NCBI GenBank assembly: GCA_012295275.1
Contig: CM022670.1
Location: 15,872,001 to 15,936,000, forward strand
Source: Chrysomallon squamiferum
Taxonomy: Eukaryota > Animalia > Mollusca
Direction: 5' to 3'
DNA length: 64,000 bases
The notes beneath the pieces were generated by a model, which did no database searches, had not been told where the DNA came from, and saw only the letters and a program-made list of their open reading frames with translations. This document shows, one piece after another, positions 17,245 to 43,926 of the stretch. Position 1 is the first letter of the stretch, and each line of letters opens with the position of its first letter. A program made the translations under genes and the position numbers.

Positions 17245-17246
<2 letters not shown>

Positions 17247-17981: not shown

Positions 17982-17985
<4 letters not shown>

Positions 17986-18078
<93 letters not shown>
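17986..18078. repeat. (TTA)n microsatellite, ~31 units
   Basis: Pure trinucleotide run. Confidence 0.97.
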
Positions 18079-18080
<2 letters not shown>

Positions 18081-18228
18081 ACTCTTATTATTACTATTGC
18101 AATTATTATTATTGTTGCTATTTCATTTTCATCATCATCATGTGGTTAATATATACCAGTTTTATGTTTAGCAGTTTGAACAGCAAACTTTAAAAAAAAT
18201 AATTAATATTATCTAACTACAAAACAAA

Positions 18229-18275
<47 letters not shown>

Positions 18276-18433
18276 CATGCAATACACTATTAAAATAAAA
18301 AATAAAAAAATCCTAAAAAACTGAACTTTTGAGATCACACACACTAATTAAGTGCCAGACTATTTTCCTCCCATTAGCAGCATCAGAATGAAACTTACAG
18401 CAATCAATTCTCACTGACTAGCAGCACTTTAAC

Positions 18434-18477
<44 letters not shown>

Positions 18478-19723: not shown

Positions 19724-19758
<35 letters not shown>

Positions 19759-22700
19759 TGAAGAAAATTTCAGAAAATGAATGCCTGTGATATGGGGTGT
19801 ATGTTACTGAGATGTATTAAACTTTGATTTGATATGACATGGGAGAATGTACACTGAGACAAAGTGTGCATTTTGACACCCTCGTCCCAGTCATGTGAGA
19901 ATGTGTTTACACAAAGTGTGACCCAACACACAATGTCTTCTCTGTCACTCTTCATGTTTCTCTGGCCTTTTTCAACAAAAAGGTGAAGGTTGCCTCATGC
20001 CACTTCACAGAGTGTTTTGTTCTGCTTTTCTTGTATTGTAATATGCATCATAAATGTCTAACATCTACCTCTTGGCATTTTCATATTTCCCATACCCACA
20101 AGCACCAAATACCAAATATCTTCTCTCTCTCCTTTTAACAGAAACAAACAACAAAAAAAACCCCCACCAAATACATCAACACTTTGCATATTTTGCATTT
20201 TTTTGTACAACTCATTGTACAACTAGATCTTGATTTACATCATGATGTATGCACTTGAAAGACAGGAAACTTAAGTGTATGTGTGAAAAACATGCATAAA
20301 AACATAAAACAGCAAACTAAAATATTAATTGTATTTGTAGACCACAACTTACTTAAACATGAACTTCTGTTGAAAAGCTTTAAATACACAGTATGCAAGT
20401 GTGTATGCATTCACACAAGCGAACATAAAAACATCCACACACATACAAAGAGAGATCTGGGCACATATACATTCGAACTGTATGCTAAGATCCACAAAAA
20501 GCTCCAGAATTAGAAAACTGTATGTCTCATTATCCCAAAATTCTAAATGTGATCATCACACAGCTGTATTAGCAAGATGAACATTATGAAATAAACTAAT
20601 TGGAATTAATAAATCAATATGTTTAGAATATTTGAATAGATTAAATAAATTAATGATTTTGCTATTTGCAGTTTGTTTGAAAATGTGCTTAAAACATTTT
20701 TTTGGAGTACATCTTTATACAGGCCTAATTCTTTCAAGCATCTCTAGGTGAAAAAAGAATGGACACATCTCAGTAGTTGAAGATGAAAACAAAAGCCAGT
20801 CACAGAAAAAAACCAACAAAAAAAAACAACATTTTAACATCTTTTTCACATTTTAAGCAAGATCAAAGCCACTTTGTGATATATCAGTTTTTCTCAGCCT
20901 GGTGAGAACATTAGATAGTGGGGCAGACGTTGCCGTACACTAAACAGACCTGTAATCTTGTTAAAAACCTTCCACCAACAAGAGCAGTGTTTGCTTATTT
21001 CTTCTCAAGCCTGTTATGTGATTTATTTAATCAGCTTAGCATGGAGAAGGTATTTTCCAAGTAGGTATTACATTGTTTGCAGAGGTGAAAATTTATCCAC
21101 ATCAAGAGTGCAGTACAAATGGATGATGAGATTAAATAGGTGTCGACACTGTTTGCTTGAGAACCTCTCACGTTACCGATTAGGACCAGTCTGTGTAGGG
21201 TTTGTTGTCGAGTGCTGTAGCAGAAACATTTCTCTGATACAGTGCTTAACTGCTGATTTTTAGGTTCAAATCTCCATTCTTTTAAATTCTTTTAGAAGAA
21301 CGTAAAAGATTGCAAGATGATTTTCTTTTTTTTCTGTAAAATTTGTATAAACTAACCAGATATTTAAAATGTAACTGTAGGTGTCTAGGATCAGATCTGA
21401 GTATTGGAACATCAAAGATATTCAAAGAAGTTCAAAGATATAGGCTAATGTTTCTGTATTTCATAAATATTGCAGTGTACAGAATGGTGCATTTAGAATC
21501 ATAGACTTGAATTTTAAATAAAACCAAGACCATAATTAAAATTAAACTGAATATTTCACCATGAAAATATCTGAATACCAGGCACTGATCTCAAAATGTA
21601 TATCAGTTGAAAGATGGGTGTGGTGGGGTATACAGCTACTTACACCCACAGTTTGTACAACTCTGTTTTCTACAGTGTACTTCCCTGAACTGGTGTATTA
21701 TCAGCAACAAGCACAAAGAGAAGGAAAAATGAGTCTAATCTGGCTGTGTGAAAAACTCTGAGACAGTTTGTATACACAAACATCAGTCTCCTGCTGGGCT
21801 ACAGTGTAACCAGAGGACTTGTACTTGACCAGGCAGTGCCTCAGTCACACTGGAATAGGTTAGCCTTTTTCACATCATTTTATAGCCCACTGAATCCATT
21901 CTCGCTTGTCAAAGAGAATTTCAAAAGACTTCTTTTAGAAAATGATGCACTGCACATTAGTGTTTGCACTGTGTAACATTTATATAATTACAATATAAAA
22001 AGTGTATTTTGTTATGGTCAAAACAGTAATAATGATGGTATAATAATAATAATAATAATAATACATAACAAATATTTCTGAATTTGGTTTCTTAAAGACA
22101 TTTTGAATTGTATATTCATTTTTTTTTTTTTTTTTTTTTTCTTTATCATATGTATACTCTGAAGTCAGAAAAAATAAATAAATAAATAAATAAAAATAAT
22201 CATCATTTAGAACATATTAAAAAATGTTATGATCAGTTTTCTCTAAACTCAGAGATCATTTCTAAACTGTTCACCAAAGACTTAAATATCTTACACTTGC
22301 TTGTTGTTTCAGCCACATTAGCATCTTCAGGCAGATAAAACTCTATTTTGATAATGGTTTAAAATGCCATTAAAAAGTGAATAATTTAAGAGGATAATGG
22401 AAAACAAAAATCTTTTAATTGATCATTTACTGTACCTTTAAGAGAACATAAACACATTGTTTAAATGAACTGGTTTTATTAATTAACTGATATTAATCAT
22501 TTATATTTGGCACACTGTTCTCTAAGTGCTATGAAACAATGGTGTAGAAGCTGAATCAGACTTGTTAATGCCTGTATGAGAAATGTTGTACTGAAGCAAG
22601 CCTTGTTCATAAAAACATGGAAAGTCAGGATTTCTTAATATAGTGATTTAATTCATTTTAATTCATTTTTGTTTCAAGTAGTTTAAAATCTCATCTTGTC

Positions 22701-22824
22701 CTGACTGTATGAGGACTCTGGTTAAAGAGATCAGACAGGTTCTTTAGCATGAAAGTTTACAGAGTTAAAAAATCTAAGAACCAATTTCTTCTTGATTTGC
22801 TCAAAGTTTCGTCATTTTGGAGGA

Positions 22825-22972
22825 CAGTTGTCCACCCTGCCCAGCCTCCCCCCACCCCTGACTTGCATGTCCATGCATCTTATCAGTTGTTGAGAGCCCC
22901 ATGGACACATTCTCAACAAACAATTCACTGAAAACACTTAAGGGGTCGGAGGTCAGGGAGGGGAGACAACTG
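22825..22972. other. GC-rich imperfect inverted repeat with a nested inner hairpin (~148 bp fold-back)
   Basis: Left arm cagttgtccaccctgcccagcctcc...acccct (22825-22859) resembles the reverse complement of the right arm, cagttgtctcccctccctgacctccgacccct (22941-22972). Inner stem ttgttgaga (22887-22895) pairs with tctcaacaa (22911-22919). Confidence 0.65.
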
Positions 22973-25900
22973 ACAGACAGAGCCCTATAATTATTGGCTT
23001 CTTCATCAAGTGAATCCCCATTTGATCAAGCAACTTTAAATTATACCTCATTATCACCACTGTTTATACTGAGGTTATTTTCTGGTCAAACATTTTTCAT
23101 CTCATTTTTTTTTTTTTTTTTTTTTTCTCTCTTTTCTTTTCTTTGTTAGAAAAACAATCAATTTGAGGCATGTCTCACTTGTGACATGCATATGACTGGC
23201 CTTCTCAGCTGTCATCGGTTCAATTCACTGGGCTACCTGTGTGTCTGCCAAGGTGATGATTATCATCATCTGTGCTGTTGGTACTTCGTCCTGTTTGTGT
23301 AAACGATGTTTATGTTGACAGTGGTGATTTTCACGATGAAAACAATATTGAGAAAATAAAACAAATCTGATTGGAAATAGAGACCATTTGGTGACATGTG
23401 AACACTTGTCTAAAACCGAGACAGTAGATTAAGAATTAAATTTAATTATTTAGAGTTTGATTTCATTGTTAATGTGGAGTCCTCTGAGTGCGGGTATTAC
23501 TTTCAGTACAGTGTGTATGAAATCTCATCCTTTCATTTATGACAGAAGATTGAACAGGCTTTTCTGACAGTGGACTTTGTGCATGTCAGACTCAGAGTGG
23601 AAATTAACTGGAACAATTCACTGATTGTTGAAAGACTTATAATTAACAGATCTGCAGCACATTTTGATGTCTTATTAAAAGAAAATTAAATTGTTTTGAA
23701 AACTCTCTTTCAGTAACATCATTAATATCCAAAAAAACCCATTTATTACCAAAAACATCCACAACAAAACAAACATCAAAATAACAAATAATAAATTATA
23801 AACAGACTTTATAAAATCCATGTCTGTAAATTCAATATATATAAAAAAATATAAAAATTGACAGATGAAATAAATAAATACATTTGAATAAAGAAAACTG
23901 CAAATTCAAATATCTGCTAATTGATGCACAGATGTTTAAAATGAGGATAAAAGCTTGACTTTATCTAACAAGTTGACAAGAATATGATACGTTCAGTTGT
24001 AATGACATAATTGAATGTATGGCGAGGGTTCTGACAAATGTCTGTTAATGACTGTTTAACACAAATGACCAACACAGATAAGACTGTCACACACTGATGG
24101 TTCTATCACTGGACTCAGATCTTGTCTCTCTCTTCAGTTCTGCTGGCCTTCATTTGCATTCAGACCGGCCAGCTGTAACTAGGTGAGGAGAGGTTGTGGG
24201 TTGGGACTAACAAAGTACCAGCTTCATAGTCAGCGACCACTAATTGCCATTGAACTACAGAGTATTGTTTGACACAAAGCAGATTACAACAAATTTGGAT
24301 AATTTGTACAGAAAATGAAATGTTTATTGTTACAGAAATAAAATAGAAAAATTATGATTATTTTGGTAGCAAATAAAGAAAACTGAGATGCTGATCACAA
24401 GAATTAAATCTGAGCAATTTACAAAGCTCACATTACAATACTGTTAATATATGTATATATTTTTACAATAGTGAAATAATAATTTTATTAAAAGAAACAA
24501 AAGAAATGTATTATATAAGATATGAGATGCAAGTTTTAGGCTATAAAAAAAAACAAAAAAAACAAACAAACAAAACAAGCATATTTTGCTTCTTTTCTTT
24601 TCCAAATTTAAATCTTTAAACTCATGGTATTGTCTTGACATCCTAGCAGGAGTATCAATGGAATGAAGCCAACCCAGGCATCATTTAGCATGTAGGTATG
24701 TCATAACATTTAGTTGAGATGATGTATGGCAGTGTGCAGGTATTGTTTTCTCACCTGTACGAGTGCAGACCTTCCACTCAACCTCTGTCAGTGTTTACTT
24801 AGACTGGTAACAGTGGCTGTTTTACTGCACACCAGCAACATAACTCACAGAGCTACAAGTTTACCTACAAGCCAATAACCATAAGAACCAGTGGTTTAAT
24901 GGACACAGAGTCATCAAGTAAGCAGCATATTACAAGCCTAACTAGTGCTTGAGTCAACACCTCTTTCCACAGTCAATGATTTCAGTGTAAATAGTTCTTA
25001 TTGCTTTCTGCTTGCAGCTGAAGGGAGTTAGTGAAACTGAAACTGTAAGACAGAGAAAACATGCTCAGTATCAGTTAATATTTGCTTCACAACAATAAAA
25101 TATTTTGAAATTCTTGAAATTTTGGATTCAGTTTTCCAAAAGAAAAAACTTACTCCAACAGATATGATGTAATAAAAAAAAAAAAACCTGTATTTTAAAA
25201 TGATTTTATTCTTTTTTTTTTATCCTTACAGGGTAGTAAAGAATATTAAGATTTTATAGAAAACATATAAATAAACTTCTTGTTAGATTTCATACAGTTT
25301 AATTTAAAATCACCACCACAATTATTTTTATAATTAGCTACTAGTTACAGACATATTGGCAGCAATAAAAAGACAAATGGCTGGTATGATGTTTAACTAA
25401 AAGAAGCCAACACCATTTTATTAAATCAACAGATTCCACTAAGAGTGTGATAAACTGTTTGATTTTATTGAATCTGCTGAACTGGGAACCATTTCGATGG
25501 AATGATTCATGAATATTGCGGGACAAAGCCAGCTAATGTGTTTGAAATCTCAGTGACAAAACAGGATTAGGTGTTTAATCTTATTTTTCAGTGGCCAGCA
25601 TCAGCGATAGGAGAGTGTTTAGCATTTGTCATGTTTCCTCTGTTTCCTGATATGATATGATTACTACATCTTGATTGAGGATGAAAGAGGTTTAGCGACG
25701 GGATGCAGTTGTATGCACGATGAATCATAAACAGACACAACTTACACATGCTTGTATACACATTAATAATGATCAAATCTGAACATGCACATACATGAAC
25801 AAGCACATACATGAACAAACACAAATAATCACAGTGACACAGTGAGAGAAATTATGTTACACATGTAAATATACACCTACAAATGCACACACAGGGGCTT

Positions 25901-28900
25901 TTGGCTATTCATTTTTCTCATGATATAGGTGAATGAGGATTCTGACTTAATGATAATTATTTTTAATGATAAATGTATACAACTGAGATCAAGTTAAGTC
26001 CTTCCATAGGTAATTAATTATAAATATGTCACAGGTGTTGTAACTGTTATATCAGTGAGAAGTATTACCAGAATGTTGTTCTGTTGAAACAATTCAACTG
26101 TTCATGCAACAGAATTTACTGTGACAAGCAAATACATTTAAACCTACTACATTTCTAAAAAACACAGTATATTAACACACCAGATATGTGCATTTGGCTT
26201 TGAAGTCTTACATAGTTCAACCATTCACTGCCAAAATGGAAAATAACAGGAATTCATTCAACAAGGATGTCCATCAAAGCTATTGGTCATCAACTTGTAT
26301 ATATATAACAAATCACACCTAATCATTCCTGGAGTCTAAGTCTGTATCTGCATGAGCTGAGAGATCACTGGGTGTCCTGTACTTTTAACAGAGCCACCTA
26401 TACTGACTGTGCAAGAGCTGGAAACATGTATCCACACAGTGTTGGAAATGGCAGCATGTTAGAAAAATCTGATGTTTAACTGGAGGGAGTCATCTGGACA
26501 ATTTTAGCTACTGCTGAACCTTTGAATTACAAATGGAATCTGCACACTTGAAGTGATATTTTTTCTCTCTTAGTTGTTTTATGAACTCTGTAACTCCATA
26601 CTTTGATCTCATTTTTGTTTTTTTTTTTGTTTGTATTCAGCTGTAATTTTGATTATGCAGTGATAACATGATTAAAATATCTGAAATGTGATATAATTAT
26701 TATGTTTTCTTATTGCTGGTAGGTTGTTGATACAGATCAAATTTGTTTTTCTCATCTTATTTTACCAGTAATGTCTTGGCTATATTTGTTTTATTAGTCA
26801 CCTGCTGATGCATCATTTTATTCCAGATGTATAGATAAGAAACCATACCACTATTAAAATATATGATTATCTCTTACTTCCTAGCAGACTTCTGGCTCTG
26901 ATAAAGTTTGATGAAAATTCAATATTTTACTGGCAGAAAGCCCTAAAATCAGAAGCACATCTGACTGAAGAAAGAGTACTACACCATACAACTCACGTAC
27001 ACTTTTTTTCTCCCTTTTGTTTAGTTATCTCAACTTTGAAGACATTTCTTCTCCTTAACTAAGATCAACTTAAAAATTGGCAGAGAAACTGAATTGTCTG
27101 GCACCATTTCTGCGCTGGTGGTGTGCTAGGCATGAAACTGTGTACATTGGTGAAATAGTTGATGTAGCTGAAGTTGCACAGCTTGGGGCATGCAGGGGAT
27201 TCTTCTGTCGTGTTTTATTGAGAAAATCCTGTTTTGTTTGATCATTGTGGAACTCCAGTGTGAAATACTACAACATCTGCAGTCTTGTTAGCCCGGCCAT
27301 CTTTCAGCAGAGTCTTCCTCTTTGAGCAGTCCTTTTCTTACATCAAACTCAACTCAACAAGGGGCTGCATGTATGTTCACAGCTTCTCCACTTTTCACAT
27401 TGTTTTTTCTTCTCCTGTTTTTTTTTTATTGTTCGTCATGATACACTGTAAGCCACTGACTGAGGGAGATGGGTGATTATTCAAGTTTTATACAAGTCTT
27501 TGTTTTGTCACATGTACACACGAGGACAACACTTTGCACTTTATCATTATTACTCTACTGTTACTACTACTACTACTATGTTGACAAAGATGATGACTGT
27601 TATTATTTTTTTTTTATTATTTAAAGTTTCAAAAGTTTGTGGGTTTTTTTTTTGTTTTTTTAATTTTTTTTTTTAATAATATTTTTTTATTTTATTTGTT
27701 GTTGTTTGCTGTTAGGGATGTTGTCTTGTTTGGGTTATTTGTTAGAGGATTTTTCAGTCACTGTACAATGACATTAACTGTCAACAGCACACAGACTGAA
27801 AGCCCTGCAGTACACACTGGTTATGAAGAACAAACATGTAGTCAGAAGAAAGATCTAAATCTTTGTCATTTTACAAATAAAGTTAAAATGTTTTTCTTTG
27901 CTGATTACTCATGTTTTCAGTATTTTATTCTTAAGTACCTATTTTTACCTGCCCCCTTCATCTTTTTTTTCCTTTTTTACTACAAAAAAACAAAGACTTG
28001 TAAGTATTATTTACACAAAAAGTTGTGTCTTAAAAATAATAATTACATTTAATTTTAAAAGATTAGATAAGAAATAGAATGTCTTTTTTTTTTATGACCA
28101 TTTTACTTCCCTTTTTTTATCCCTTTTATCTTGTATTCACTGTAATCACAGCATGTTACAGGTTGGCAACAGTTATAAAGAAACATTAAAACATGGCGTG
28201 TATTTTTGCTATATGATTATTTTATATACAATTTTATAGCTGTACAAAGATGTTTTCGTGTTAAACACAGGCACTAGAAGGAGGTTAGTCGAGAAGGGAG
28301 ATCATTCTGGTCCAAGTAACCTTATCAGTTTTGTCACCATAAATCACAGCAGAATCAGAAACAAAATCACAACAGCTGTTTTGAAATAACAGAAATGTCT
28401 TTTTTCTTTCAGATTTACATCATTAATTTTTTTTTTAAATATTCTTTTTCTCTTTTTTTTTCATAATAATTTTTTTCTAAGCAGTTATTTTAACTGAAAA
28501 CTGAGATGAAAATATCTCTTAGTTTTAAAATCGTTGAAACCAGAGAGAAGACGTATTTTAAAATGTTATCTTGTACAGCCTGCTTTGCGTGTAAAAGTAA
28601 TAATATTTCTAAGTGCTTTAACAGTTGCCAGCAAATATGGCTCCAAAGTGTTTTCATTATTTGTTTGTTTTAATTTATATTTTCAAATATTCCAAAAATT
28701 CTTGTTGTAAACAAAATAAACAGGGCCATCTGAATGACCTACAGCATTCGGACCTTTGGTTCTTTGATTATTACATTTTACACAAACAAAATTCAAAATA
28801 ATCACATCCTGCCCACTTATCGACAGCATGTTGAAGAATTTGTAACAAAAATTACAGCAAATATAATCTACAGAATATTAATAGAAATTAATTATAACTG

Positions 28901-30371
28901 ACAATGAATCCATGTTTAATTTTGCACATAACAAGAGTAATTCATTAACTGGTTCCCAGCATTAAAATCTTCAGTAAGAAATTTTGAATCAAAATGTGCC
29001 AGCCCTGTTTTGAAACTCCATCCCAAATTCAGACTGGATTTGAATTTTCTTTAATAGCATCTACAATTTGTAAGGACACGTAATTTTCTGTAACTTCTTT
29101 TTCCAGTTTATTGTTTTAGCTCGGAACACTGTTATCGTAGGACTAATCTCACTCCATAAAGACTAATTTAAAGATGGCTGACTGTTTTGCCAGTGCTGTA
29201 TCACTTCAATCAGCTGCAAGCTAACCATTAAACCAGTCTTCGCAAAGTGTGATGTTTATTCAAATGATTCTGTTGTTCAGAGTATCTACAAGACTAATAA
29301 ACACAGAGGGTTTTTTTTTTTTGTGTAACTAACAGAACTTAACACTGGAATGGAAACACATTATGACTGGTATCTGCTTTCCTCAGCCAGTGCCATGTGT
29401 CCATGTCACATGGGTTTCTTTCATCATTGTTTCAGGTGAAAATTTCCCCATCTTAAAAAATGAGTTCACTAAGAAGACGAATGAAGGAAGACTGACTTAT
29501 ATTATTAGTTATCATCTTCGAGCATGAATGGAATTGTTTTATGTTTTTTTTGGTAAATTAGTCACAACTCAGTGGTTAAATATGAGCTTCAGAATTAATT
29601 ATATTATTTCCAATTGCAGTTCTCAATTTTCTGTTCTGGCACTCCTTTGTTTCTCATTTGATCACTCACCATTACACATTTCCAGTATTTTGTTATATTC
29701 CATTCAAATTTCTATTGATGTCCATGAGTGATTTCATTTATTTTTATTACTATTCATTTCAACAAACCTATTTGATGTATAAAGGTTATCTCTGGGAAAA
29801 TACAAATGAAATAAGTTCTTTTCTTGAATCTTCATTTTTTTACATGCACACACACAGTGATATATATATATATATATATATATATAACCACTGATTCTGT
29901 TGCTATTTTAGAAAATATAGTTGGACTGTTCTAACCTCAAAAAAAAAAAAAAAAAAAAAATCAATCAATGATTTTTTTCCTACGTTACTTAGTTGTTTTC
30001 TAAATTTTATTTTATTTTTTAATATTTTTACTGTTTCTTTGCCAGAACTTTAAACGTTTTTTTTTTTTTTTTTTTTTTTTAATTTTTAAACTGTTAAAAT
30101 AATGAGAAATAGTTTAGTGATTTATGTAAATAAACTTCAGAATATGTGTTTAAATCAAGAGAATATACTCAGTTTTTATCCTTCAAAGTGTTTGTTTTTT
30201 CAAATAACACAACATTAGTCTGAAAGTGTTGACATATTTCTACGGTTTTATCACTCTTCAATCTTTTTCTAATTATATTAAAACAAGATGTCTGCACTGT
30301 GTCACAGTGACATAAACAAAACAAATAGATCTGATGAAAAGTAAAATAAACAAAATAAAAACTCCAGAACA

Positions 30372-30414
<43 letters not shown>

Positions 30415-30560
30415 TAATAATGATAATAATGTTACAGTAATTAAAAAAAAAAAAAAAAGTAGATAAATAAATAAATTAATTAATTAATAAAATAATAATA
30501 ATAATAATGACATTAAAAAATAAAAAAAAATAAATAAATGAGTAAATAAGTAAAGAAAGA
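30372..30560. repeat. (AAT)n / poly-A / (AAAT)n compound low-complexity tract
   Basis: Direct inspection. Confidence 0.9.
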
Positions 30561-30876
30561 ACAAAAAAACGAAAATAGAAAATAATTATTTAATTAAAAG
30601 AAAAACCATCTGAATTATTTGAAAATTATTTTTCATATTTATTTAATCTTTTCTTAACTAAATTAATAAATTATAAATTATAACTTCATTTTTATATTTA
30701 TATTTATTTATACAACAAAATTTAACAATAAAAATAAAAGTTTTAATCTGCTTTAAAAATAGTGTTTATTGAATGCATATTCCACATAAATTTATATACT
30801 GGTTTTAAAATTATTATTTTTGATTTAATTATATAACACATGTATTTTTGCATTTTTAACTCAATTATAAAATAGT

Positions 30877-30920
30877 CTGATTGATGAATTATTCTTTTTT
30901 CTTTTCTTTTGCAGGTGAGT
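30877..30920 (+). other. Candidate recursive splice site (3' splice site joined to a regenerated 5' splice site, AG|GT at 30914/30915)
   Basis: CTGAT at 30877-30881, no AG until ttcttttttcttttcttttgcAG, immediately followed by GTGAGT. Confidence 0.55.
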
Positions 30921-31000
30921 TCAAATTATTCCTGAATATGTAACAACTTTTACAAGATGAAAATATAAACTATTTAGAGTCATCATGATCAACCCAGTTT
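30915..31000 (+). other. Candidate 86-nt RS-exon or non-coding exon
   Basis: Starts at the strong acceptor and ends at TTT|GTATGT (31001). Stop codons occur in all three frames. Confidence 0.4.
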
Positions 31001-31999
31001 GTATGTATGATTTTTTGTTTTTTTTATTGTCTACTTGTAAGAAAATGGGAAATATTTATTAATATTTTAGAGATATTTCCTGCACAAACTGTTAGATAAT
31101 CATTTAAAATAATGAAAGTAGTTAGAAATTTAAAAGTGATAAATATTAAGTGGTACAACATTTGTGTGTGACAAAAGTACATGTGGTATGTATGTAACAG
31201 TCTGCTTTTATTGACATCAAACATCAGAGCAAACAGCCAAGAAAAAAAATAACAATAACAATAATTGAAATAATTAAAATATGAGCTAATGAACATTAAT
31301 GAATAAAATATTTTTTAAAATAAAACTACATGAATACTCAAAATGGATCCAATTTTCTAAACTTTTTATTCTTTTTCTGTCCTAAAAACTATTTATATTA
31401 TTATTTTGCTGCCGTAGAAACCAAGTAATCATTTTTTTTTTTTTTAAAGATAAAGTCTTATGTATAATGTCATCATTTTCCAATTTAAACATGTTTAGCA
31501 TCAGAAAAAAACATGCATGTTTTGTTTGTTTGTTGGCTAGCATCTTGTAGATGAGCTCAGTTTGAAAGCTCTGGGTATCATTATTATTATGAGGATGCAC
31601 AGTATTAATGGAGAATTGTTTATTTTTTTCACTCATTACACATGAGAGGTATTAAATTGACCTCATCGAGAACCTAATGATGATTTTAACACAGTGCTTG
31701 CCTCATCATCATCACCAGGCATGATACAGCAGCTTTTGCAAAAACAGTTTTAAAAAACAAAAATAAAAAATGTCACAAGATGACATCTACCAAAACCTCT
31801 GACATTCTCAGAATTGCCAGTATTTTTGTTTTTGTCCTGGATCAAAGATTTCTCTTCCAGTCATAACAGAACCATTAAGCGACCAAACAAATTAGAAATG
31901 GTGTTGAAATCAGGAATTTCTCTCTCTCCCTCTCTCTCCCTCTTTCTTCCTGTCTCTTCCTGTCTCTTTCGCTGTTTTATCTACACTGAGTGCATATTG

Positions 32000-32160
32000 C
32001 ATGCACATGGAATAAATAAGCCGTATTCCCGAGAGCGTGGAATCTGTTTTGAAAGTTTCGGGTCACAAGTTCCGCTGACATGATGGGTGAGCACAGCTGA
32101 GCACGAATCTAGACAACGTGGAAGTGCAAGAGGATCCCCTCGCCTGCAAACTGAGCTTCT
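32000..32160. promoter_or_regulatory. CpG-retaining island, candidate regulatory element
   Basis: About 8 CpGs in ~130 bp, preceded by a pyrimidine tract (31918-31970). Confidence 0.3.
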
Positions 32161-33483
32161 TTCACATCACTCTACAGCTGAAATAAAAAACTAAAAAAAA
32201 AAACTCCACAAGATACTGACCCAGCCTAATATACTTAATAGTGATGAGGCTAAAAAAAAAAAATATATATAAAAAAATAAAATATTGTAGCATCAAAATT
32301 CTTTGCGGGGTTCTGAGTGCAGTTTTCTCTCCAGACTCTGCTGTCAGGTGTCTGCTGTGTTACACTGTGATGCTTTCATGTCATGCAGTTTCTAGTATTA
32401 TTGCCCATTGGCAGACAGGCTCTCATGATGAATGAAAGAGCAGGGAGGAGATTGGGAAAAAAGGCAGTTATTGTCAGTGTAATGGTAAAAACAGCAGTAG
32501 TAAATTCCCAGTATAAACTGGAGAATTTTGATTGTGCGTAGACTTAGTTTTCTGATTGACTAGTAACAGAGAGAGAAAAAAAAGAAAAGATTAGTTTGAA
32601 AAAGAATGTATTTATTTACATTAATTTTGTTGTTGAGTGAGCTTTTTTTGATTGACTACCAACAACAGCTATATTTTTTTTTTTTTTTTATTATTATTAA
32701 AAGGAATGTTTAACAATAAAAGAAGATTATATGTGAATATCAAACCACAGTTTATTAAAAAGAGAGATAATCTGAAATAAAAAAATTTAAAAAATGAGTT
32801 TATTTTAAAGCATACACAACAGCTTGCGACATATGCATTGGAAATAAAAGGTGTCAATATTTTTTTAACTACAGATTTAAAAACAAAAGAAAAGAATAAT
32901 TTAATTTCAAATATAACTCCTACAAGAATGAAAAAATATTATTATAGCTATTATTATTATTATTTTTTTTTTTTAGAGTAATTTTATGTAATATAGGTTA
33001 CACACAAAAGTGACAGCCATTTTTTTTTTTTTTAAGTAGCCTGGATTTTATAATGATTTAATAATAACATTTGTGTCAGTCTTTGGCAGGTGGTGAGAGG
33101 TCTAATACCAGTTGTTAGTTTGTCTTCTTCAATTATTTCTCTATCAGTCACTCTCATCTCTATCACCATAGAGATTTCTCTAAAAGTGATTCTCTTGCAT
33201 ACAGCTGAACAAATTGTTTATCAATAAAGGTTAATGTTACAGATATTCTGGCATCCAATTTACAAATTTTGTTTCACACATTTTACAGGTGTATTTGTTA
33301 TGTAATAAGTAAAAATAATAATAGGAAACAGAATGTAAAGGTGAAATAAGGAAAACAGAAGTTAGCATAGCTACAAAATTGATAAAGGAAAATGTTTTTT
33401 GTTTTCGTATCTTTAAAGCAATAAAAATGATTTAAAGAATATTTTATTGCCTTTTTTTTCAATGCAAACGAAATTATTCAGTA

Positions 33484-33510
33484 TACTAACCTTTGCTTTT
33501 TCACTTTTAG
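33484..33510 (+). other. Strong 3' splice site with a perfect TACTAAC branch point
   Basis: TACTAAC (33484-33490), ctttgctttttcactttt, then AG (33509-33510); the branch A is ~21 nt from the junction. Confidence 0.4.
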
Positions 33511-33593
33511 ATTTATTTATTTACTGATGTACTTCAACTTTAATATCCAACTGGCATCATGCACTTCTGCTCCTAAATTATGTAATGATATTA

Positions 33594-33607
33594 GTTGCCA
33601 TGGAAAT
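33594..33607. promoter_or_regulatory. RFX X-box-like motif GTTGCCATGGAAAT
   Basis: 12 of 14 positions match GTTGCCATGGCAAC; the identical 14-mer recurs at 62457. Confidence 0.35.
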
Positions 33608-34369
33608 TACATTTGTATATCAACTGTTGCTTTCATCTCTTGCCTGTACCAATATAATCTGTCAGGTCCATTTCACAAATATATCATTTCATTAAGACTA
33701 CTAAGTTCACCGTTCTCTTTGAAAATTCAAAAAGAAAAATCAGAAGAAAAAAAAAAAAACAGAAAAGAAAGTTAGGTAAAAGAAATCTCACACAAAAAAA
33801 GATTAATTGAAAAAGAAAAGTAATGGTGAAATAAGCTGAATGCTTCTGATATATTCTGGAGCTTTATGAGGCTTGTAATTGCGTGAGGTATTTTCAACAT
33901 CACTATTTTTATGAAGGTACTAACGCTTGGTAAAAATTCTTCAAGCTTATGTCGGCCTCCTTTGAGTAAGGAGTGGAAAGTTAATTAACTTTCAAAGACT
34001 TTTTTAAAAAGTTTATTGCTTTTAATTACAAAACACTCAGACAATGGCATTGCTTTAATTATGCACAGATACTTTAATTTTAGACACTAATTTATTTCTA
34101 CTCACACTGGCATATTTATGATTTTTTTTGTTAATTTTATAGGTAATACTTGTTATCTTTTATAATTATGTTGTAGTAAAATAGTAACTATATAAGATAA
34201 AAATTAATATAATTATTTATAATATCTTTGGTTTTTAAAAAAAAATTTAGTTCCCCAAATTAATTTCATAAAGAAGTTTAATAGATAATGCAAATATGAG
34301 ATTTAGAAATATAACTAAAATATTTATTTTTTATTTTATTTTCATTAAATTTACAAAATAAAAATAAGA

Positions 34370-34542
34370 ATAATAGCAGCAGCAACAGTAACAACAACAG
34401 TAACAATAATAATAATAGTAGTTAATGATAATATGGTAATATTATTAATAATAACTAACAACAACAACAACAATTATAATGATAATACTAATAATATTAA
34501 CAACAACAACAACAACAACAATAATAATAATAACAATAATAA
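34370..34542. repeat. Compound (AGC/AAC/AAT)n trinucleotide tract
   Basis: Direct inspection. Confidence 0.88.
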
Positions 34543-36134
34543 CCTTAAAACAAAATCACACATGAAAACCAACAGACTAATATTGGAACTGTTATAGTGG
34601 TTATCATTGAAACAAATTTCAATATGATAAAACTACAGAACTAAGACTTTTTAAATTGTTTTATCATATTTTTTATGATGGTGCCAACATCTGATAGGAC
34701 ACAAGCAAAGTTACTTAATTATGGAAATACAAATTTTAAAATGTTGGTTACTGGCTGTGTTGTGAAATTCTTGCTTTCTACACTACTGATGGTCATCTTT
34801 AGAAAAGATAAGACAAAGATTTTGAACTTTATAAACCAAACAGTCAATATCTGGATGAAATAATTTTAAATACATCTGATTCAGTAAGCTGCAAGAATGC
34901 TGTTATAAGTTACACACATGATTTTGAGATAACAATTTAATGACACTGAAAGAAAATCAATAGTTTACTGTACGATAACTGGAATTAGTGCATGTACATA
35001 TGCCTGCCTCTGTATTATCTTTTCAAAATTTAATTTTATATTTCATTATTGTAGTAATGATAGTCATGGTTAAGCAATTTAATATAACAGTAGGATGAAA
35101 AGTGGTTAAATAACAGTTTTTAGTCGTAACACACATTTCATTTAAAATACCAATTAATATTCATCTTCTGTCTTACTCATTCTGTTTCTATATTCTTTTT
35201 GAATGATCACAGGATAATCCAATAACTGTTAGTAATGAGTGGTGTTAATAAATAATTAAGTGTGCTTGTGAAAATACATTTTCATAATTACTTTTTATGA
35301 GACTTGAAAGCACTTGAGAGCAACAACCAGTTTTATTTTGATGTTGTCTCTCACTCTGCATATATCCCATTTATAAAAATCCATTTTAATCAGCTCAATC
35401 TTTGATTGGATTTCTTGATAAAAGGCTTTTTTTTTTTTTTTTTTTTTTTTACACCCTTCCATTTCACAAGCAGAATTAAAGTGTCAGAAAGTGTAACATC
35501 TCCAACAATACTTCTATCCATCATGTACTTGAGATAAATCAACAGTCTGGAAACAATCTACAGACTGCAGCCTACACACAGCAATCAGGTTAATTTGGTC
35601 GTGCTTCTATCAGGTAGTCATCATCTGCCACACTCTTCACCCAGACACTACAAGAAGCAGACACAGAACCAGAAGATATCCAGTAATTCAGATCTTCATA
35701 AGGAAATTGTCACTGACTCTTCTCTTCAACTTCAACTTTTCAGTTCTAGGGGATCAAAGATACAAGACTGCCTCTCAAACACTGAAATACCTTCATATTG
35801 TTTATATTTTATTTGATCTCCTTCAAACTGTTGTCACAACTGTTTGTTTAATTAGGTCACAATGTCTTGCATTCAGTTTCTTTCAGATTTTAATGCTTGA
35901 CCTGTTGATGATATATCTTGTTATGTGAGTTAGTTTCTCATTTTGTACTTAACTGATAAAGATCAAAGCCTGAATCTGAAGCCCTCAAAAGATACATAAA
36001 CCTCCACTTAAACTATCATATATAATAGTTTAATTGATACTGAGTGTTAACATAATTCACCGCTCATCTGTTGACTTAATTTTTTTTCTTTTCATTAATA
36101 AATAAAACTTATATTTATTTCTCTCTTTTGCTCT

Positions 36135-36480
36135 CCATTCAGAATGTATCCATCCATCCATTTATTCATCCACCTATTTCTGCAGATCTCCACTCGTCCA
36201 TCCATCCATCCATCTATCTATCCACTGATTTATTCATTTATTAAAATCTTTTCATTCATTCATCCATGTATCTGTTCATTTATCTATTAACCATTTTATA
36301 TTCATTGTCCATCCTTCTATATATCCATGTCAGTTCATTCTTTTCTTCGGACATTTATCCTTGTAATCTATTTTAGCAATATGTTTATCCATATCCTTCC
36401 TTTTATCTATCCATCTATCCTATCAGTCAATTTCTTAGACTCACTCAGCCCACACTCTTCATCTGTCCATCTAATGCCAT
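36135..36480. repeat. Degenerate (CATC/CATT/TATC)n tract
   Basis: Dense ccat, tcat and ctat tetramers. Confidence 0.8.
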
Positions 36481-36748
36481 CAGTACAGCCAGCACACAGG
36501 GAGGAACATTCTAATAAAGAAAGAACTGACTTATGAGAGAAATAGGATGTCTTACAGAGAAGTACATACCTCAGTGATTGATAAACTAGTCAGTTCTGTG
36601 CGATGCATAGAAATGTTTGCAGCCATTAAGTAACAATTTGATGTTGATACAGAAAAGTGGTTCTGTTATATAACAAAGTTCAGTGCACATTCCAAAGTAG
36701 CAGATTCCTACAGCAGTCATTTTTCTATCTCTCTGTTTGTTACAGCAG

Positions 36749-36901
36749 CATTCTGATAAACAGTGTGAAAACATTACTGTGTTAAATATAATAGATTTAC
36801 TGTTCATAGTGATATATTAACTCATTCTGATAAACAGTGTGAACACTTCATTATGTTAAACATGATATAACAATGATATTGTTCAGTGTGATCTATTAAC
36901 T
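36749..36901. repeat. ~74-bp tandem duplication, 2 diverged copies
   Basis: cattctgataaacagtgtgaa...tgttaaa...tgttca...tattaact starts at 36749 and again at 36823. Confidence 0.88.
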
Positions 36902-36980
36902 AGTAGAGATATATGTAATTTATGTCATTCAGGGTTCTGTTTGTGGTGTGAGTTTCTATGCATCTGCTTCTGAGCATGTT

Positions 36981-36983
<3 letters not shown>

Positions 36984-37056
<73 letters not shown>
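36984..37056. repeat. (AT)n(GT)n compound microsatellite
   Basis: Direct inspection. Confidence 0.95.
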
Positions 37057-37060
<4 letters not shown>

Positions 37061-37569
37061 TCTGTGTGTCTGTTTTTATACACAGAATATGTTCATAATG
37101 TCAGCAGTAATAGCTGTGAATCTAACATTTCTGTATGGTAAGCGTTTACACATGTGAAACATTCTCAGAATAATTCTTCTGAGGAAAAAAATGGAATAGA
37201 TATTTGTTCTCATAAAACAGCTCATCACCATTTCTCTCTAATAGATATATTAATTTTTAATCATGTTATTTACAAACCAGTTTTTTCTTTCTTTCTTTCT
37301 TTTCTTATCAGATTTTTAAACAATTATCTTATTTTCCAGTTAATAAAAAAACTGTTACGCTCTCATTTTCATTTCATGATTTTAATTGCTTCAGGAACCA
37401 GCATCAAATCTCTGTCATATTATTAGTTTTTTTTTTATTAAAAATTAAAAATTGATTAACTGAGAAGCATGACTCATAAGCTCAGTCATCATCGCCTGGT
37501 ATTTCCCTATCCAAACTAGTGCTCTGTAACAGGCACTGATATATGTTTTCAGTATGTGTTAATGCATGC

Positions 37570-37692
37570 ATGTATGTATGTATGTATGTATGTATGTATG
37601 TATGTATGTATGTATGTATATATGTATATATGTGTGTATATCAAAGAAATGTTGATGTTGACTGTGCTAATATTTTTTACTTATATCATTAA

Positions 37693-37739
<47 letters not shown>
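37570..37739. repeat. (TATG)n tract followed by a (CT)n tract (37701-37739)
   Basis: Direct inspection; explains the ORFs at 37556-37891. Confidence 0.9.
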
Positions 37740-37744
<5 letters not shown>

Positions 37745-38246
37745 CTCTCTCAATTTCTTTCTCTGTATCCACCTCTTTCAGTTCTTGCTTTGAAGTGCAG
37801 CAGCTCCAGCCAGTGTTTTCAGTGTAAAAGCTTGGACATTTCTTTGATTCCACAAGAGCCTTCAGCCACTGCATTCGAAGAATTTTCCTGAGTTATGAAC
37901 TCAGCACTGCATGGCCTCAGAATGGTGCATAATCCTCGAATCACAGAAACGTGGATGCACTTAGGCAATCTCATATTTTGAGAAATAGATCAAGATATGA
38001 GGAAGAGAACATCTACTTGTATGTAACGGAAAAGGGATTGGCATTTACAAGTTGTATAACTGTCTAAGTACATGGTATTTCTATCACTGTAAATTATCGT
38101 AGGTTTCCACTTCGCTGGTCACTTAATTATCAGCCTGAAATAGAAAATAACAACAAAATGAAAACTCAAAGCTACTTAAGATGAAAAGAAATGTAGAGTT
38201 AGGATATTATCCAGGGACTGATACAAACAGTTAGAAACACACTGGC

Positions 38247-38962
38247 ATGAAGAGTTAGATAATTATACATGAGCTGATATGAAGAGTTAGATAATTATAC
38301 ATAGACTGATATGAAGAGTTAGATAATTATACATGAGCTGATATGAAGAGTTAGATAATTATACAAGGACAGATATGAAGAGAAATAATTATACATGAGC
38401 TGATATGAAGAGTTAGATAATTATACATGGACTGATATGAAGAGTTAGATAATTATACATGGACTAATATGATGGGTTAGATAATTATACAAGGACTGAT
38501 ATGAAGGGTTAGATATTTATACAAGGACTGATATGAAAGATTAGATAATTATATATGGATTGATATGAAGAGTTAGATAATTATGTGTGTACTGATATGA
38601 AGAGTTAGATAATTATACATGGACTGATATGAAGGGTTAGCTAATTATACATGGACTGATATGAAGAGTTAGATAATTATACATGGACTAATATAAAGAG
38701 ATAGATATTAGATGGTTATACATAGACTGATATGAAGGGTTAGATAATTATACATTGACTGATATGAAGGGTTAAATAATTATACATGGATTAATATGAA
38801 GAGTTAGATAATTATACACAGACTGATATGGAGAGTTAGATAATTATGTATGGACTGATATGAAGAGATAGATATATTAGATGATTATATATGAAGAGTC
38901 AGATAATTTTGTATTGACTGATATCAGAGTTAAGTAATTATGTATGGAATGAGAGTTAGATG
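38247..38962. repeat. 32-bp minisatellite, ~22 copies (atgaagagttagataattatacatggactgat)
   Basis: Unit starts at 38247, 38279, 38311 and onward; head-to-tail with point variants and no spacers. Confidence 0.97.
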
Positions 38963-39549
38963 ATAATTCAGAGACTGCAGACCTAAATTAAATACAAAAT
39001 AATCTCCTTTTATTATGCTACAGTGATATTACCGTATTAAAATATTTGTGTTAATTTTCTTTTTATTATAATGAGGTTGTAAATAGGACATAATCTGGTT
39101 CTCGCAGCCTGTGTTTGGCAACAGGTATAGGCATGTATGTCTCACCCCAGTTTTCTCTCTTTACTACACTGAACAATATAAATCTCATTTTCTTACCTTG
39201 CTGTCCATGTCTTTGTGATCCTTTATGTTTCATCAGTAAAGAGAAATATGACAGTGAACAGAAAGCAAGACAAAACTATTGTGTTTAAAATATATGGTGT
39301 AGACATATTTTGGTTCAATAGTAAACAACAAAAATATAACTTCAGGGGACAGTTTTCATGTGTTTATTGCAATCATGATGGTATGGAATATAAATTTTTA
39401 TTATCTATATGTATTTTTTTATTGTTGTTGTTATTATTATTTTTGATCTATGAAGTTGTCTTTCATTCTTTATTTCCTTTCTTGTCCTTTTTTCAGTTTT
39501 TTTTTTTTTTTTTTTTTTTTCTTTTTTTTCTCATTATTTCTTTTCAGTG

Positions 39550-39665
<116 letters not shown>

Positions 39666-42600
39666 GAGTTTATATCCTTCCAGATGTTAACTGATTTTGG
39701 ATTATTTAGGAGTATCAGATATATGAGAGGAGGTTTTTTTCTTTGATTTTTCATTCTTACTGAAACTTTTCACAGGGCTATAAACCATTTCCTTAGTATG
39801 TTTCTGTGTCCATGTGTGTGTGTGTGTGTGTATTTTTAACAGTTTTTCTAGTACATTGCCAACATCACAGATAAGACATTTCAGGGAATGTTTGTTTTAA
39901 AACACTCTACATAATCTTAATGGTGATGAAAAAAACAATAGTCTCTGATTTGTTTGCTTATCAGCTTAAAGACACAAGTAAGAGCTTATCAGAAAAGATT
40001 CCTTTTATGATACAGCTTACCTAAATTACCTTTCTTGTTTACCTTCTTGTAAGCAGAATATTTCCATACCAACATTTTTTTTTTTTTTTTAAATGTTTTC
40101 TCAACTGTATCAGGTGATACAAATTATTGGGAAACAAGTAGCTTCTATAAAATAGTTTTAAAAAGAAATGCCACAAATTTATGCATTATTATCTCTTGAT
40201 TGAAACCTAGCTTGGTGTATATTTCAGGCTTTTTAGCGACCAAACCTTCATGTAATTTTATCCGCCTTTGAAGTGTTTTTTAAAAAATAATGTTGCTGAA
40301 CAACTTGTCAGTTATACACAATGGTGACCTGAACTATGTCAAACCTCTCTCCGTTTACCCCAATATTTTACTGATATTTATACATTTCTCCGATTTTTTC
40401 AAATGTTCTGCTTCTTCGAGGTTTTTTAAATAAATATTGTGTGTTTTGGTAACGGTGAAGCAAAACATACTTGAGTGAATTTTTTGAAACGCTGCAAACT
40501 GTTTCTGATGGTGTCTGCGTGTGGGTAGAGTCACTCACTGTGTTACATAATGTTTGGCTTAGAATCAGTCATGCTCCTTGAAAAACATCAAAACAACAAC
40601 TTCTACTGCAGCTGCCGTTTCTGCCATTACTCTACTACTTTTATTATTATTACAGAATAATTAAAACTCTTTATTTTATGTTCTTTTTCAAATGGCATAT
40701 TAATTTGAAAGGTTTTTTGTTTTTTTGTTGGTTTTTTTTTCCTTTTTCTGTTTTAGTCATGACTTCAAGTAACTGTATTCCTGGCTCTGAATTTTCTTTT
40801 TGTTTCAGCCTCTGTTTGCAACATTTTATTAAAAGAGCCTGATTTGTTTTTATTGAATGGTGTCTGCAAAAGAACTTTTCTTACAAAATAATACGAAACA
40901 TCCACATCTATAACTAATGATAGCTAACTTTAGAATACATTAAACAAGTATTATACAGTTTACTTCAGACTGTATTGCTGAATGTTTTTCTTGCCCATAC
41001 AGACAACTTTTTCATGTCATATTGACCACCAGTTCTGTGAAACTGATAGCCTTGTTGATGCAATTTCAAGAAGCATTTGTCTACCATTCTCTGTTATAGA
41101 GACCTAAGCAGAAACCCGAGTTCCACCTTTTCATGATAAAATTGTCATTATTTTTAACCCATCTTTTGTCCTCCATTTTTATGAAGTCTATAAAACATGG
41201 GAAGGATCAGGTTTTATTTCAAAGAGTGCATTTATTTCTATAATTATTGTCTGAGATGAGTAACTGGGGAATTCACTACAGCTGGTATATTCTGTGTTAT
41301 AGATCTTTGAGAGTGATAAAATACACTGATGAATTTAGCTTTTCATCTGTACATGTGTGTGTCTGTGTGTATGTAAACAGACCCAGACCCTCACACACAT
41401 GGACATGTAATTTTAAACAAACATGTTTTAATACATTCATTACTGTTATTATTATTTTTTTTAGATAATATCTAAGTTGCTGTGAGTTTTATGGATTAAC
41501 TGTCCCTGGTAAATTATTGTTGTGAATGTTTAACCAGTAACAAATTTGTAATCCCTTATTGCATGACAAGTGACAGAATATATATTGATATTTACATTGT
41601 TATTCAATTCTAACATGCTGAGAGGAATTAAGGATTATCTGTCCCTAGTGAATAAGTGAATTCAGAGAGCAAAGAACAGCAAATTCCCTGTATGCATTAA
41701 TAATTGACAGTATGTTTTTAATATTTACATAGCTGTTAGATGTCAGTTTTCATTTAGCCTATAACATTTGTTTTAAAACACTTCACCAAAAAAAATAAAA
41801 AATAAAAAATAAAAAAATATTAGCAGCACAAAGAGTATGTATCAGTGATAACATTCGAGCTGATGGTGACATTTTTCAGAGCTGTGATTATACAATATGG
41901 AGAAACCATACCTCTCCATTGGTCCCAGGGTATCTGTAGCAGTCTGACAAGAGGTGCAAATCTGGTAATTACAGACCAGTGCCTGGATGTCATCACATGA
42001 TAGATGGCAGTACCTGATCTCTGCAGTGAAAAGGTGTGAGCTGTTAGCCGCTGACTGTAATTTCACACCACTGATTTATCATCACAAACTTTTCAAACTT
42101 AAGTGCTAACAGTTTATAATAAATTCATTGCCTGTCCTGCAGCTGTGCTTCCACACAGGAGTACCATTGTCTGAAAGTTAGTCATGTCAAAAGTCTTTTT
42201 GTCTGTCTGTCTGTCTACAAGTTAGTCTGTTTTGTTCTTTATTTTTTTTTTTTTTTTTTTAGACATCCAACCAGTATGTTAGGCCATTCATCTACCAATG
42301 CATATATATAGTGTCTTATTCTCTCATTATGCAAGCTATCTTTTCATCTTTTCATCTTTCCATTTATTCTCACATCCATTTATTTCTACATCCAACCATC
42401 CATTCATCCATCCAACCACTCGTGTATGATTCTCATTTCACTTCTGTGAATGAATCTCTGTGCATATTTCTCTTTATCAACATAGATTTCTGAACACTGC
42501 TTCTTACTTTTATACATGTCTATCTATTTTAGTCATTCTCCAAGTCTATCTATCTATCTATCCGTCTGTCTGTCTGTCTGAGAGACCACATGGGTATTTA

Positions 42601-43868: not shown

Positions 43869-43874
<6 letters not shown>

Positions 43875-43920
<46 letters not shown>
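43875..43920. repeat. (CA)23 microsatellite
   Basis: Pure run. Confidence 0.97.

Positions 43921-43926
<6 letters not shown>

What the first reader, a model, noticed from the sequence alone, without database searches (positions are those of the whole stretch)
30877..31006. Textbook recursive splice site (AG|GTGAGT) with a stop-filled RS-exon in a probable mollusc giant intron
Seen: branch-like CTGAT with its A 34 nt upstream, an AG-free interval, a 19-nt pure pyrimidine tract, CAG, and then immediately the consensus donor GTGAGT. A weaker donor (TTT|GTATGT) lies 86 nt downstream, and the segment between has stops in all three frames. Established: recursive splice sites in long Drosophila and vertebrate introns have this architecture, with a cryptic RS-exon defining the site and the regenerated 5' splice site outcompeting the distal one. 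Inference: this window is a very long + strand intron removed stepwise. I am not aware of recursive splicing being characterised in molluscs or other lophotrochozoans. Alternative: an ordinary 5'UTR exon that happens to begin GTGAGT, with ATG ATC AAC CCA GTT near its end.
Basis: partly seen in the sequence, partly recalled or inferred. Interest (0 to 1): 0.85.

Follow-up and report, generated by a model that had tools for sequence, protein, structure and literature searches.

The report
RNA-supported recursive splice site, invertebrate intron
In a long stretch of animal DNA with no recognisable gene, one RNA contig shows outside sequence (likely a distant exon) joined exactly at a fused end-of-intron/start-of-intron signal and running on unspliced, so this very long intron is likely cut out in steps, as flies and mammals do; the second cut and the animal group remain untested.

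Summary
The motif is real and far beyond chance: CAG|GTGAGT at 30914/30915 is the best acceptor and the best donor on either strand of the 64-kb window. RNA supports step 1. A contig of RNA run X6 begins at that AG, carries 26 foreign letters in front of it, and reads on unspliced to 31241. The foreign letters are absent from the window. This is the expected recursive-splicing intermediate: an exon more than 30.9 kb away joined to a regenerated donor. It rests on one contig from one run. Step 2 (lariat, skipping in mRNA) and the saw-tooth were not seen. The 5'UTR-exon alternative is contradicted. Main rival: a terminal exon ending near 31330. 'Mollusc' is untested. The scan already holds 129 notes on similar motifs in at least 13 genomes; 7 of the 8 shown state that they lacked RNA. 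Verdict: a new member of a known kind, with rare RNA support.

The parts
30877..30881 (+). Branch-point-like CTRAY (A at 30880, -34); use inferred
   Evidence: such a motif lies 18-44 nt upstream of 12% of positions; fly ratchet-point branch points lie at -21 to -36 (Duff preprint)
30892..30910 (+). 19-nt polypyrimidine tract inside an AG-free zone (30876-30912), TT at -5/-6
30912..30914 (+). 3' splice site CAG, used in RNA
   Evidence: best acceptor in the window; X6 contig record 17 aligns from 30913 with a 26-letter foreign end before it
30915..30920 (+). GTGAGT: 5' splice site regenerated after step 1 (reads AAG|GTGAGT in the RNA); its use is inferred
   Evidence: best donor in the window, 13.8 bits genomic and 12.5 bits as regenerated
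30915..31330 (+). Stretch present unspliced in RNA contigs (X6 30913-31241; X7 31089 to about 31330): likely the retained downstream intron of the intermediate; under the rival reading a terminal exon
   Evidence: tables 7 and 8
31001..31006 (+).
   Evidence: 0.9 bits; X6 contig reads through it
31037..31042 (+). Alternative cryptic RS-exon donor CTT|GTAAGA (122-nt exon); not seen used
   Evidence: 5.0 bits; read through by X6
31186..31191 (+). Alternative cryptic RS-exon donor GTG|GTATGT (271-nt exon); strongest within 600 nt; not seen used
   Evidence: 7.4 bits; read through by X6 and X7
31302..31307 (+). AATAAA 23 nt before the end of the X7 contig; relevant only to the terminal-exon rival
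1..30914 (+). Inferred first intron segment removed in step 1 (at least 30.9 kb; the donor exon lies outside the window)
   Evidence: the foreign end has no match in the window, best 8 mismatches in 26; no Pfam family at cut-off in 193 frames scanned across the window
30915..64000 (+). Inferred continuing intron segment removed in step 2 (or in later steps)
   Evidence: T-over-A skew, pyrimidine-run bias and CpG depletion continue to the window end

Best explanation
The site at 30914/30915 is likely a recursive splice site (ratchet point) in a very long + strand intron of an animal gene: in RNA, outside sequence (likely an exon over 30.9 kb upstream) is joined exactly at this AG and the molecule runs on unspliced, and the join recreates a near-consensus donor that would then be used to cut out the next stretch of intron. 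Step 1 (shown by one contig): the upstream donor is spliced to the CAG at 30914, removing at least 30.9 kb. Intermediate (shown): foreign end ...AG|GTGAGT followed by at least 327 nt of genomic sequence. Step 2 (inferred from Drosophila and mammalian recursive splicing): the regenerated donor outcompetes the weaker cryptic donors at 31001, 31037 and 31186 and is spliced to the next ratchet point or exon, leaving 0 nt in the mRNA. One of those cryptic donors probably helps to define the site, but which one is not known. If the upstream exon is coding, inclusion would meet a stop within 27 nt in any phase.
For: (1) The motif is far beyond chance. (2) X6 record 17 (355 letters, depth 10.9) aligns 30913-31241 with 1 difference and has 26 foreign letters before 30913; the join falls on the AG and makes sense as a splice only on the + strand. 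(3) DNA run X1 spans the whole stretch in one contig without that join. (4) The foreign letters are not in the window, and match the genomic upstream 26 nt at only 9 of 26 positions. (5) No joint or loose end at 31001, 31037 or 31186 among the 3 RNA records laid. (6) 26 foreign letters + AG + GT = 30, one less than the 31-letter word length (the shortest records are 31). This is what an assembly branch right after exon|GT would give, meaning the same exon end is also followed by another GT-starting sequence such as its own intron (inference). (7) The contig is not broken just downstream of 30915, so unspliced molecules were rare or dropped (inference; contigs drop rare forms). (8) Strand asymmetry and CpG depletion persist for 33 kb downstream (AT skew -0.072 beyond 36 kb; pyrimidine runs 12 against 2). 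(9) No Pfam family at its cut-off in 193 of 193 frames scanned, no Rfam match and no tRNA. (10) In published counts such motifs occur at 0.48-2.2 per 100 kb on the sense strand of invertebrate introns over 50 kb, against 0-0.12 on the other strand (PMC2773006, passages).
Against: One contig, one run. X7 does not cover the join. Only 26 (+2) letters lie on the exon side, below the 31 that the tool asks for before a record counts as bridging. The foreign end is low in complexity and could not be tied to a gene (0 matches in metagenome contigs). X2, the DNA run of the same study as the RNA, has no record over 30800-30988, so that individual's allele was not seen. Step 2, lariats, saw-tooth and skipping in mRNA were not observed; junction evidence does not separate productive from unproductive splicing (PMC6110457, passage). 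The X7 contig ends at a CA 23 nt after an AATAAA (5% of random ends have the hexamer there, 0.4% with CA; post hoc), as a terminal exon would. No orthologous site was found, so conservation is untested.
Confidence: 0.8

Rival explanations
1. 30915 is the acceptor of an alternative or cryptic last exon (about 416 nt, or a longer 3'UTR) that happens to begin with GTGAGT; the RNA is a truncated mature isoform rather than an intermediate. It could also be a side product of a true ratchet point.
For: The X7 contig ends near 31330 at CA, 23 nt after AATAAA 31302. In phase 1 the sequence reads on for 8 further codons and then stops, like a short alternative C-terminus. Cryptic last exons in long introns are described (PMC7997972, start of abstract).
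Against: No A-tail in the loose end of X7; X6 ends elsewhere (31241); both runs are from one study. An acceptor is followed by GTRAGT with probability about 2.5e-4. X6 and X7 hold 0.26 and 0.16 of the words of 28000-36000, several times what 416 nt would give (a low-coverage DNA run holds 0.06), though DNA carry-over or a long UTR could also do this. Asymmetry and CpG depletion do not change downstream.
Confidence: 0.11
2. The join is trans-splicing (a spliced leader or another pre-mRNA) or back-splicing from an exon more than 33 kb downstream.
For: The foreign end is not in the window and its source is unknown. It ends in AG, as donors and many leaders do (recalled).
Against: Two pieces of the foreign end had 0 occurrences in the main text of a leader compilation, which says putative leaders of molluscs and arthropods were unproven (PMC3795323, passage; its supplementary table was not seen). 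None of these readings explains a perfect donor right behind the acceptor.
Confidence: 0.04
3. The join is a DNA difference in the sequenced individual, a reverse-transcriptase template switch or an assembly artefact.
For: Single contig; low-complexity foreign end; no same-study DNA cover at the join.
Against: The break falls on the best acceptor of 64 kb with only 2 letters of shared sequence; depth 10.9; X1 DNA is colinear across the site.
Confidence: 0.04
4. One reading: an ordinary 86-nt 5'UTR exon (30915-31000) ending at TTT|GTATGT.
For: The acceptor is used; an ATG lies near the end.
Against: The X6 contig reads straight through 31001 with no joint or loose end; the donor scores 0.9 bits.
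Confidence: 0.01

Closest known systems
Drosophila intronic ratchet points ('0-nt exons' with cryptic RS-exons: Ubx, kuz, Bx, luna, Ten-m; Duff et al. 10.1101/006163 whole text; Joseph et al. PMC8605326 introduction and section 8; Pai et al. PMC6110457 passages)
   Same: Fused strong acceptor and donor, long pyrimidine tract, TT at -5/-6, branch-like A within -21 to -36, an exon-to-ratchet junction in RNA that runs on into the intron, weaker cryptic donors downstream, a segment within the published 2.6-63.6 kb range as far as it can be measured (at least 30.9 kb).
   Different: The host genome is strongly CpG-depleted (o/e 0.22), unlike Drosophila (recalled). No clear short RS-exon of about 50 nt: the best cryptic donors give 122 or 271 nt. 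Saw-tooth, lariat and conservation are not shown.
Vertebrate RS-exons in long introns (Sibley et al. 2015 and Blazquez et al. 2018, seen only as summarised in PMC8605326; not read)
   Same: Acceptor followed at once by a donor, with competition between proximal and distal donors.
   Different: Most mammalian RS-exons are expressed and only nine fully suppressed sites were noted (PMC8605326). Here no exon inclusion was seen, which is the fly-like outcome.
Computationally predicted RP-sites in sea urchin, bee, beetle and mosquito large introns (Shepard et al., PMC2773006, passages)
   Same: Same motif on the sense strand of a large invertebrate intron.
   Different: That work counted motifs only and did not include a lophotrochozoan; here one site has an RNA junction.
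Cryptic or alternative last exons in long introns (PMC7997972, listing only)
   Same: Acceptor deep in a long intron, read-through with stops, AATAAA downstream.
   Different: They do not need a consensus donor at the exon start; no poly(A) tail was seen here.

Membership tests
Recursive splice site (ratchet point) | Juxtaposed strong 3' and 5' splice sites, AG|GT, above chance | tested here: met
Recursive splice site (ratchet point) | Strong pyrimidine tract, TT at -5/-6, branch point at about -21 to -36 | tested here: met
   (sequence only; branch use not shown); criteria
Recursive splice site (ratchet point) | RNA junction from outside (upstream-exon) sequence into the site, continuing into the intron | tested here: met
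   1 contig in 1 of 2 RNA runs, 26 foreign letters (below the tool's 31-letter bar for bridging)
Recursive splice site (ratchet point) | The joined sequence is an annotated exon of the same gene, upstream in cis | tested here: inconclusive
   not in the window; 0 matches in metagenome contigs; no genome held
Recursive splice site (ratchet point) | Lies within a long intron (over 10 kb) | tested here: inconclusive
   at least 30.9 kb to the donor if in cis; no coding match among 193 frames of 45 aa or more that passed a GC and complexity filter; short or AT-rich exons were not scanned
Recursive splice site (ratchet point) | Second step: lariat from the regenerated donor; 0 nt left in mRNA | not testable with these tools
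   only assembled contigs were served for these runs
Recursive splice site (ratchet point) | Saw-tooth read density with a step at the site | not testable with these tools
   contig depth is one flat figure per contig
Recursive splice site (ratchet point) | Cryptic RS-exon with a downstream donor that defines the site | tested here: inconclusive
   candidates at 31001, 31037, 31186; none is seen used, which is also expected for a suppressed exon; chance rates 6-80% depending on the criterion
Recursive splice site (ratchet point) | Conservation in related genomes | tested here: inconclusive
   2 exact 21-letter matches in metagenome contigs, both without flanking homology; no related animal genome available
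Ordinary internal exon 30915-31000 | RNA spliced at 31000/31001 | tested here: not met
   X6 contig reads through
Alternative or cryptic last exon | Polyadenylated 3' end downstream of a poly(A) signal | tested here: inconclusive
   X7 ends at CA 23 nt after AATAAA but with no A-tail; X6 ends at 31241

The most novel reading that the evidence does not exclude
This is RNA-level evidence that fly-type, fully suppressed recursive splicing operates in a DNA-methylating, non-insect invertebrate (possibly a mollusc or other lophotrochozoan), where our searches found no report of it. With flies and vertebrates this would point to an old bilaterian way of removing giant introns, and it shows that ratchet points can be mapped from loose ends in public total-RNA contigs of non-model animals.
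Probability: 0.55. Interest if true: 0.65.

Novelty: new member of a known kind. Interest (0 to 1): 0.5.

Why it matters
A 2026 review lists recursive splicing as documented in Drosophila, mice and humans and calls its prevalence unknown (PMC13149111, passages). Other invertebrates have motif counts only (PMC2773006). A used ratchet point in a methylated invertebrate bears on whether the mechanism is ancestral to bilaterians or arose twice. It also gives a cheap test, contig loose ends at AG|GTRAG, for the many DNA-only candidates this scan has noted. The mechanism itself is not new.

Tried and rejected
No whole genome is held, so the upstream exon, the host gene and genome-wide motif counts could not be obtained. 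RNA cover was examined only for 30800-31420; what RNA does upstream of 30800 and downstream of 31420 is open. Neither RNA run has a record over 30800-30912 or beyond about 31330, which looks like a step at the site, but DNA run X2 has similar holes and a hole proves nothing; it is not counted as evidence. X6 record 18 matches only short AAC/AAT-rich pieces at 31245-31284 with loose ends on both sides and was dropped as a repeat from elsewhere. The foreign end had 0 matches in the window at up to 3 mismatches, 0 for a shorter motif at up to 2 mismatches and 0 in metagenome contigs. The site's 21-letter core gave 2 loci, L001 and L002; BLAST found no homology beyond 22-24 letters, so they are chance. 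Pfam: 10 of 193 frames had weak hits (best E 0.00095), none at cut-off. Rfam 0; tRNA 0. The 20 largest direct-repeat families shown (of at least 60) were micro- and minisatellites, with no dispersed element to place the animal. A looser pattern showed no series of further ratchet points: 7 matches against 2.98 expected, 4 on + and 3 on -; the next best + strand site scores 10.3, below the simulated mean best of 12.5. All three frames of the foreign end are open; one reads as a leucine run like a signal peptide, but 8 codons cannot decide. The six-term literature search was swamped: none of the 40 papers listed held the splicing term. No earlier scan notes exist on this genome or sequence.

Full report
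Observation. With a rough weight matrix whose frequencies I recalled, this position is both the best donor (13.8 bits) and the best acceptor (18.8 bits) on either strand of 64 kb. None of 300 simulations that keep 1-kb-local third-order composition reached its combined score of 22.2 (max 20.1), and 2 of 300 held the strict pattern. The strict pattern occurs once in the window and in 0 of 100 dinucleotide shuffles. GTRAGT follows CAG with probability about 2.5e-4, and 64 + strand acceptors score above 10, so about 0.02 such sites are expected. The site was picked out of a large scan, so these numbers alone do not prove function.

The accessory claims are weaker. The distal donor at 31001 scores 0.9 bits; donors at 31037 (5.0) and 31186 (7.4) are better. 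The exact hexamer GTATGT lies 30-150 nt downstream of 6% of positions, and some donor of equal score downstream of 80%. Stops in all three frames occur in 54% of all 86-mers of the window and 62% of those with similar GC. The '86-nt stop-filled RS-exon' is therefore possible but not singled out by the sequence.

Surroundings. The window is 30% GC, rich in microsatellites, and shows no gene. None of 193 stop-to-stop frames reached a Pfam cut-off (frames of 45 aa or more with GC of at least 33% and high complexity; shorter or AT-rich frames were not scanned). Rfam and ARAGORN found nothing. CpG o/e is 0.22, and between 0.14 and 0.39 in all sixteen 4-kb bins. T exceeds A both upstream (skew -0.025) and downstream (-0.060; -0.072 beyond 36 kb), with long pyrimidine runs 12 to 2 beyond 36 kb. 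From established knowledge, this fits a methylated gene body transcribed on the + strand on both sides of the site. It argues against a dipteran. With DNA contig sets of at most 737 million letters and 30% GC it argues, by recall of vertebrate genome compositions, for an invertebrate. It does not establish a mollusc.

RNA. Ten runs were listed, 8 holding part of 28000-36000, 2 of them RNA (X6, share 0.26; X7, 0.16; both labelled metatranscriptomic, one study). Four runs were laid on 30800-31420. X6 record 17 (355 letters, depth 10.9) aligns from 30913 to 31241 with one difference and carries 26 letters before 30913 that lie on nothing here. Read with the shared AG, this is an exon end joined to GTGAGT at 30915; on the other strand the break has no GT. 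The contig runs through 31001, 31037 and 31186 without a joint. X7 covers 31089 to about 31330 and also reads through 31186. DNA run X1 spans the whole stretch in one colinear contig. DNA run X2, from the RNA's study, has no record over 30800-30988, so that individual's allele was not seen. The foreign letters are not in the window (0 matches at 3 mismatches, best 8 mismatches in 26) nor in the metagenome collection. If they come from the same transcript upstream, step 1 removes more than 30.9 kb. The arithmetic 26 + AG + GT = 30, one less than the 31-letter words, suggests an assembly branch just after exon|GT, as expected if the library also holds that exon followed by its own intron or by another ratchet point (inference). 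Limits: one contig in one run, 26 letters on the short side (under the tool's 31-letter bar), and contigs show neither depth profile nor rare forms.

Mechanism. Published ratchet points were called from such junctions (an annotated donor joined to an unannotated intronic AG|GT) plus a saw-tooth, and confirmed by lariats; 196 of 197 have TT at -5/-6, branch points lie at -21 to -36, and segments are 2.6-63.6 kb (Duff et al. preprint, whole text). Cryptic RS-exons are recognised first and then skipped because the regenerated donor is usually stronger (PMC8605326, introduction and section 8). Here step 1 and the intermediate are shown by one contig; step 2, exon definition and skipping are inferred. 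The regenerated donor scores 12.5 bits against at most 7.4 for rivals within 600 nt. If the upstream exon is coding, inclusion would meet a stop by 30933, 30941 or 30916 in phases 0, 1 and 2. Junction evidence does not separate productive from dead-end splicing (PMC6110457, passage). I put this reading at 0.8.

Rivals. A terminal exon is the serious one (0.11). The X7 contig ends at a CA 23 nt after AATAAA 31302; 5% of random ends have the hexamer there and 0.4% also end in CA (post hoc). Against it: no A-tail, X6 ends elsewhere, the RNA runs hold several times more of 28000-36000 than 416 nt would give (DNA carry-over or a long UTR could also explain that), the intron-like composition continues for 33 kb, and a perfect donor at the exon start would be a coincidence of about 1 in 4000. 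Trans- or back-splicing (0.04) and an allele or artefact (0.04) cannot be excluded without the source of the foreign end; the supplementary leader table of PMC3795323 was not seen.

What is known. Motif enrichment in large introns is published for fly, mosquito, bee, beetle and sea urchin but not for vertebrates (PMC2773006, passages). A 2026 review names Drosophila, mice and humans (PMC13149111, passages). A lungfish preprint found human-like levels (10.1101/2024.12.11.627982, first third read). Searches pairing recursive splicing with mollusc and lophotrochozoa gave 0 papers. With 'mollus' there were 2 and with cephalopod 1, all incidental on reading the passages. With annelid there was 1, on an unrelated enzyme (listing only). 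With Aedes there were 10, none on this topic by title. The library lacks most subscription journals, so this is not proof of absence. The scan itself holds 129 notes with these words in at least 13 genomes, among them octopod, annelid and sea-urchin cases; 7 of the 8 shown say that no RNA could be examined, and two look-ups for RNA-confirmed cases found none holding all the words. These notes are unchecked and are not counted as support.

Verdict. A real, used splice acceptor fused to a consensus donor, most likely a ratchet point of a giant intron: a new member of a known kind. Its value lies in the RNA junction and in the probable lineage, which is not yet pinned down. Interest 0.5.

Noticed in passing
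window 51905-51913 and 9008-9016 (+): Two isolated consensus donors (CAG|GTAAGT, AAG|GTAAGT). All 3 AGGTRAGT matches of the window are on the + strand, 0 on the - strand. Neither has a convincing coding exon in front, and neither matches the foreign end joined at 30915.
   Followed up: partly
window 31970-32141: Nine CpGs in 172 nt in an otherwise CpG-poor window, behind a TC-rich tract (31920-31968) and with a donor-like TGG|GTGAGC at 32087; possibly a regulatory element, an element remnant or a cryptic exon end.
   Followed up: no
window 63366-63783: 30-bp minisatellite, 14.5 copies, open in several frames (repeating GATVNSKEYV on the - strand); weak Pfam hits only.
   Followed up: partly
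window 38247-38952 and 59979-60453: Minisatellites of 32 bp (22 copies) and 49/100 bp.
   Followed up: no
window 7503 (-) and 29436 (+): Next-best fused AG|GT sites (scores 14.9 and 10.3), within the range of the simulations.
   Followed up: yes
window 31199-31351: Allelic differences between runs and the window (X7: 4 substitutions and 1 deleted letter; X1: 2 substitutions and 1 deleted letter); none listed in 30800-31198, which includes the splice signals.
   Followed up: no
whole window: All long (TC)n arrays lie on the + strand (6 against 0) and T runs outnumber A runs, a strand bias that fits long-standing + strand transcription.
   Followed up: partly
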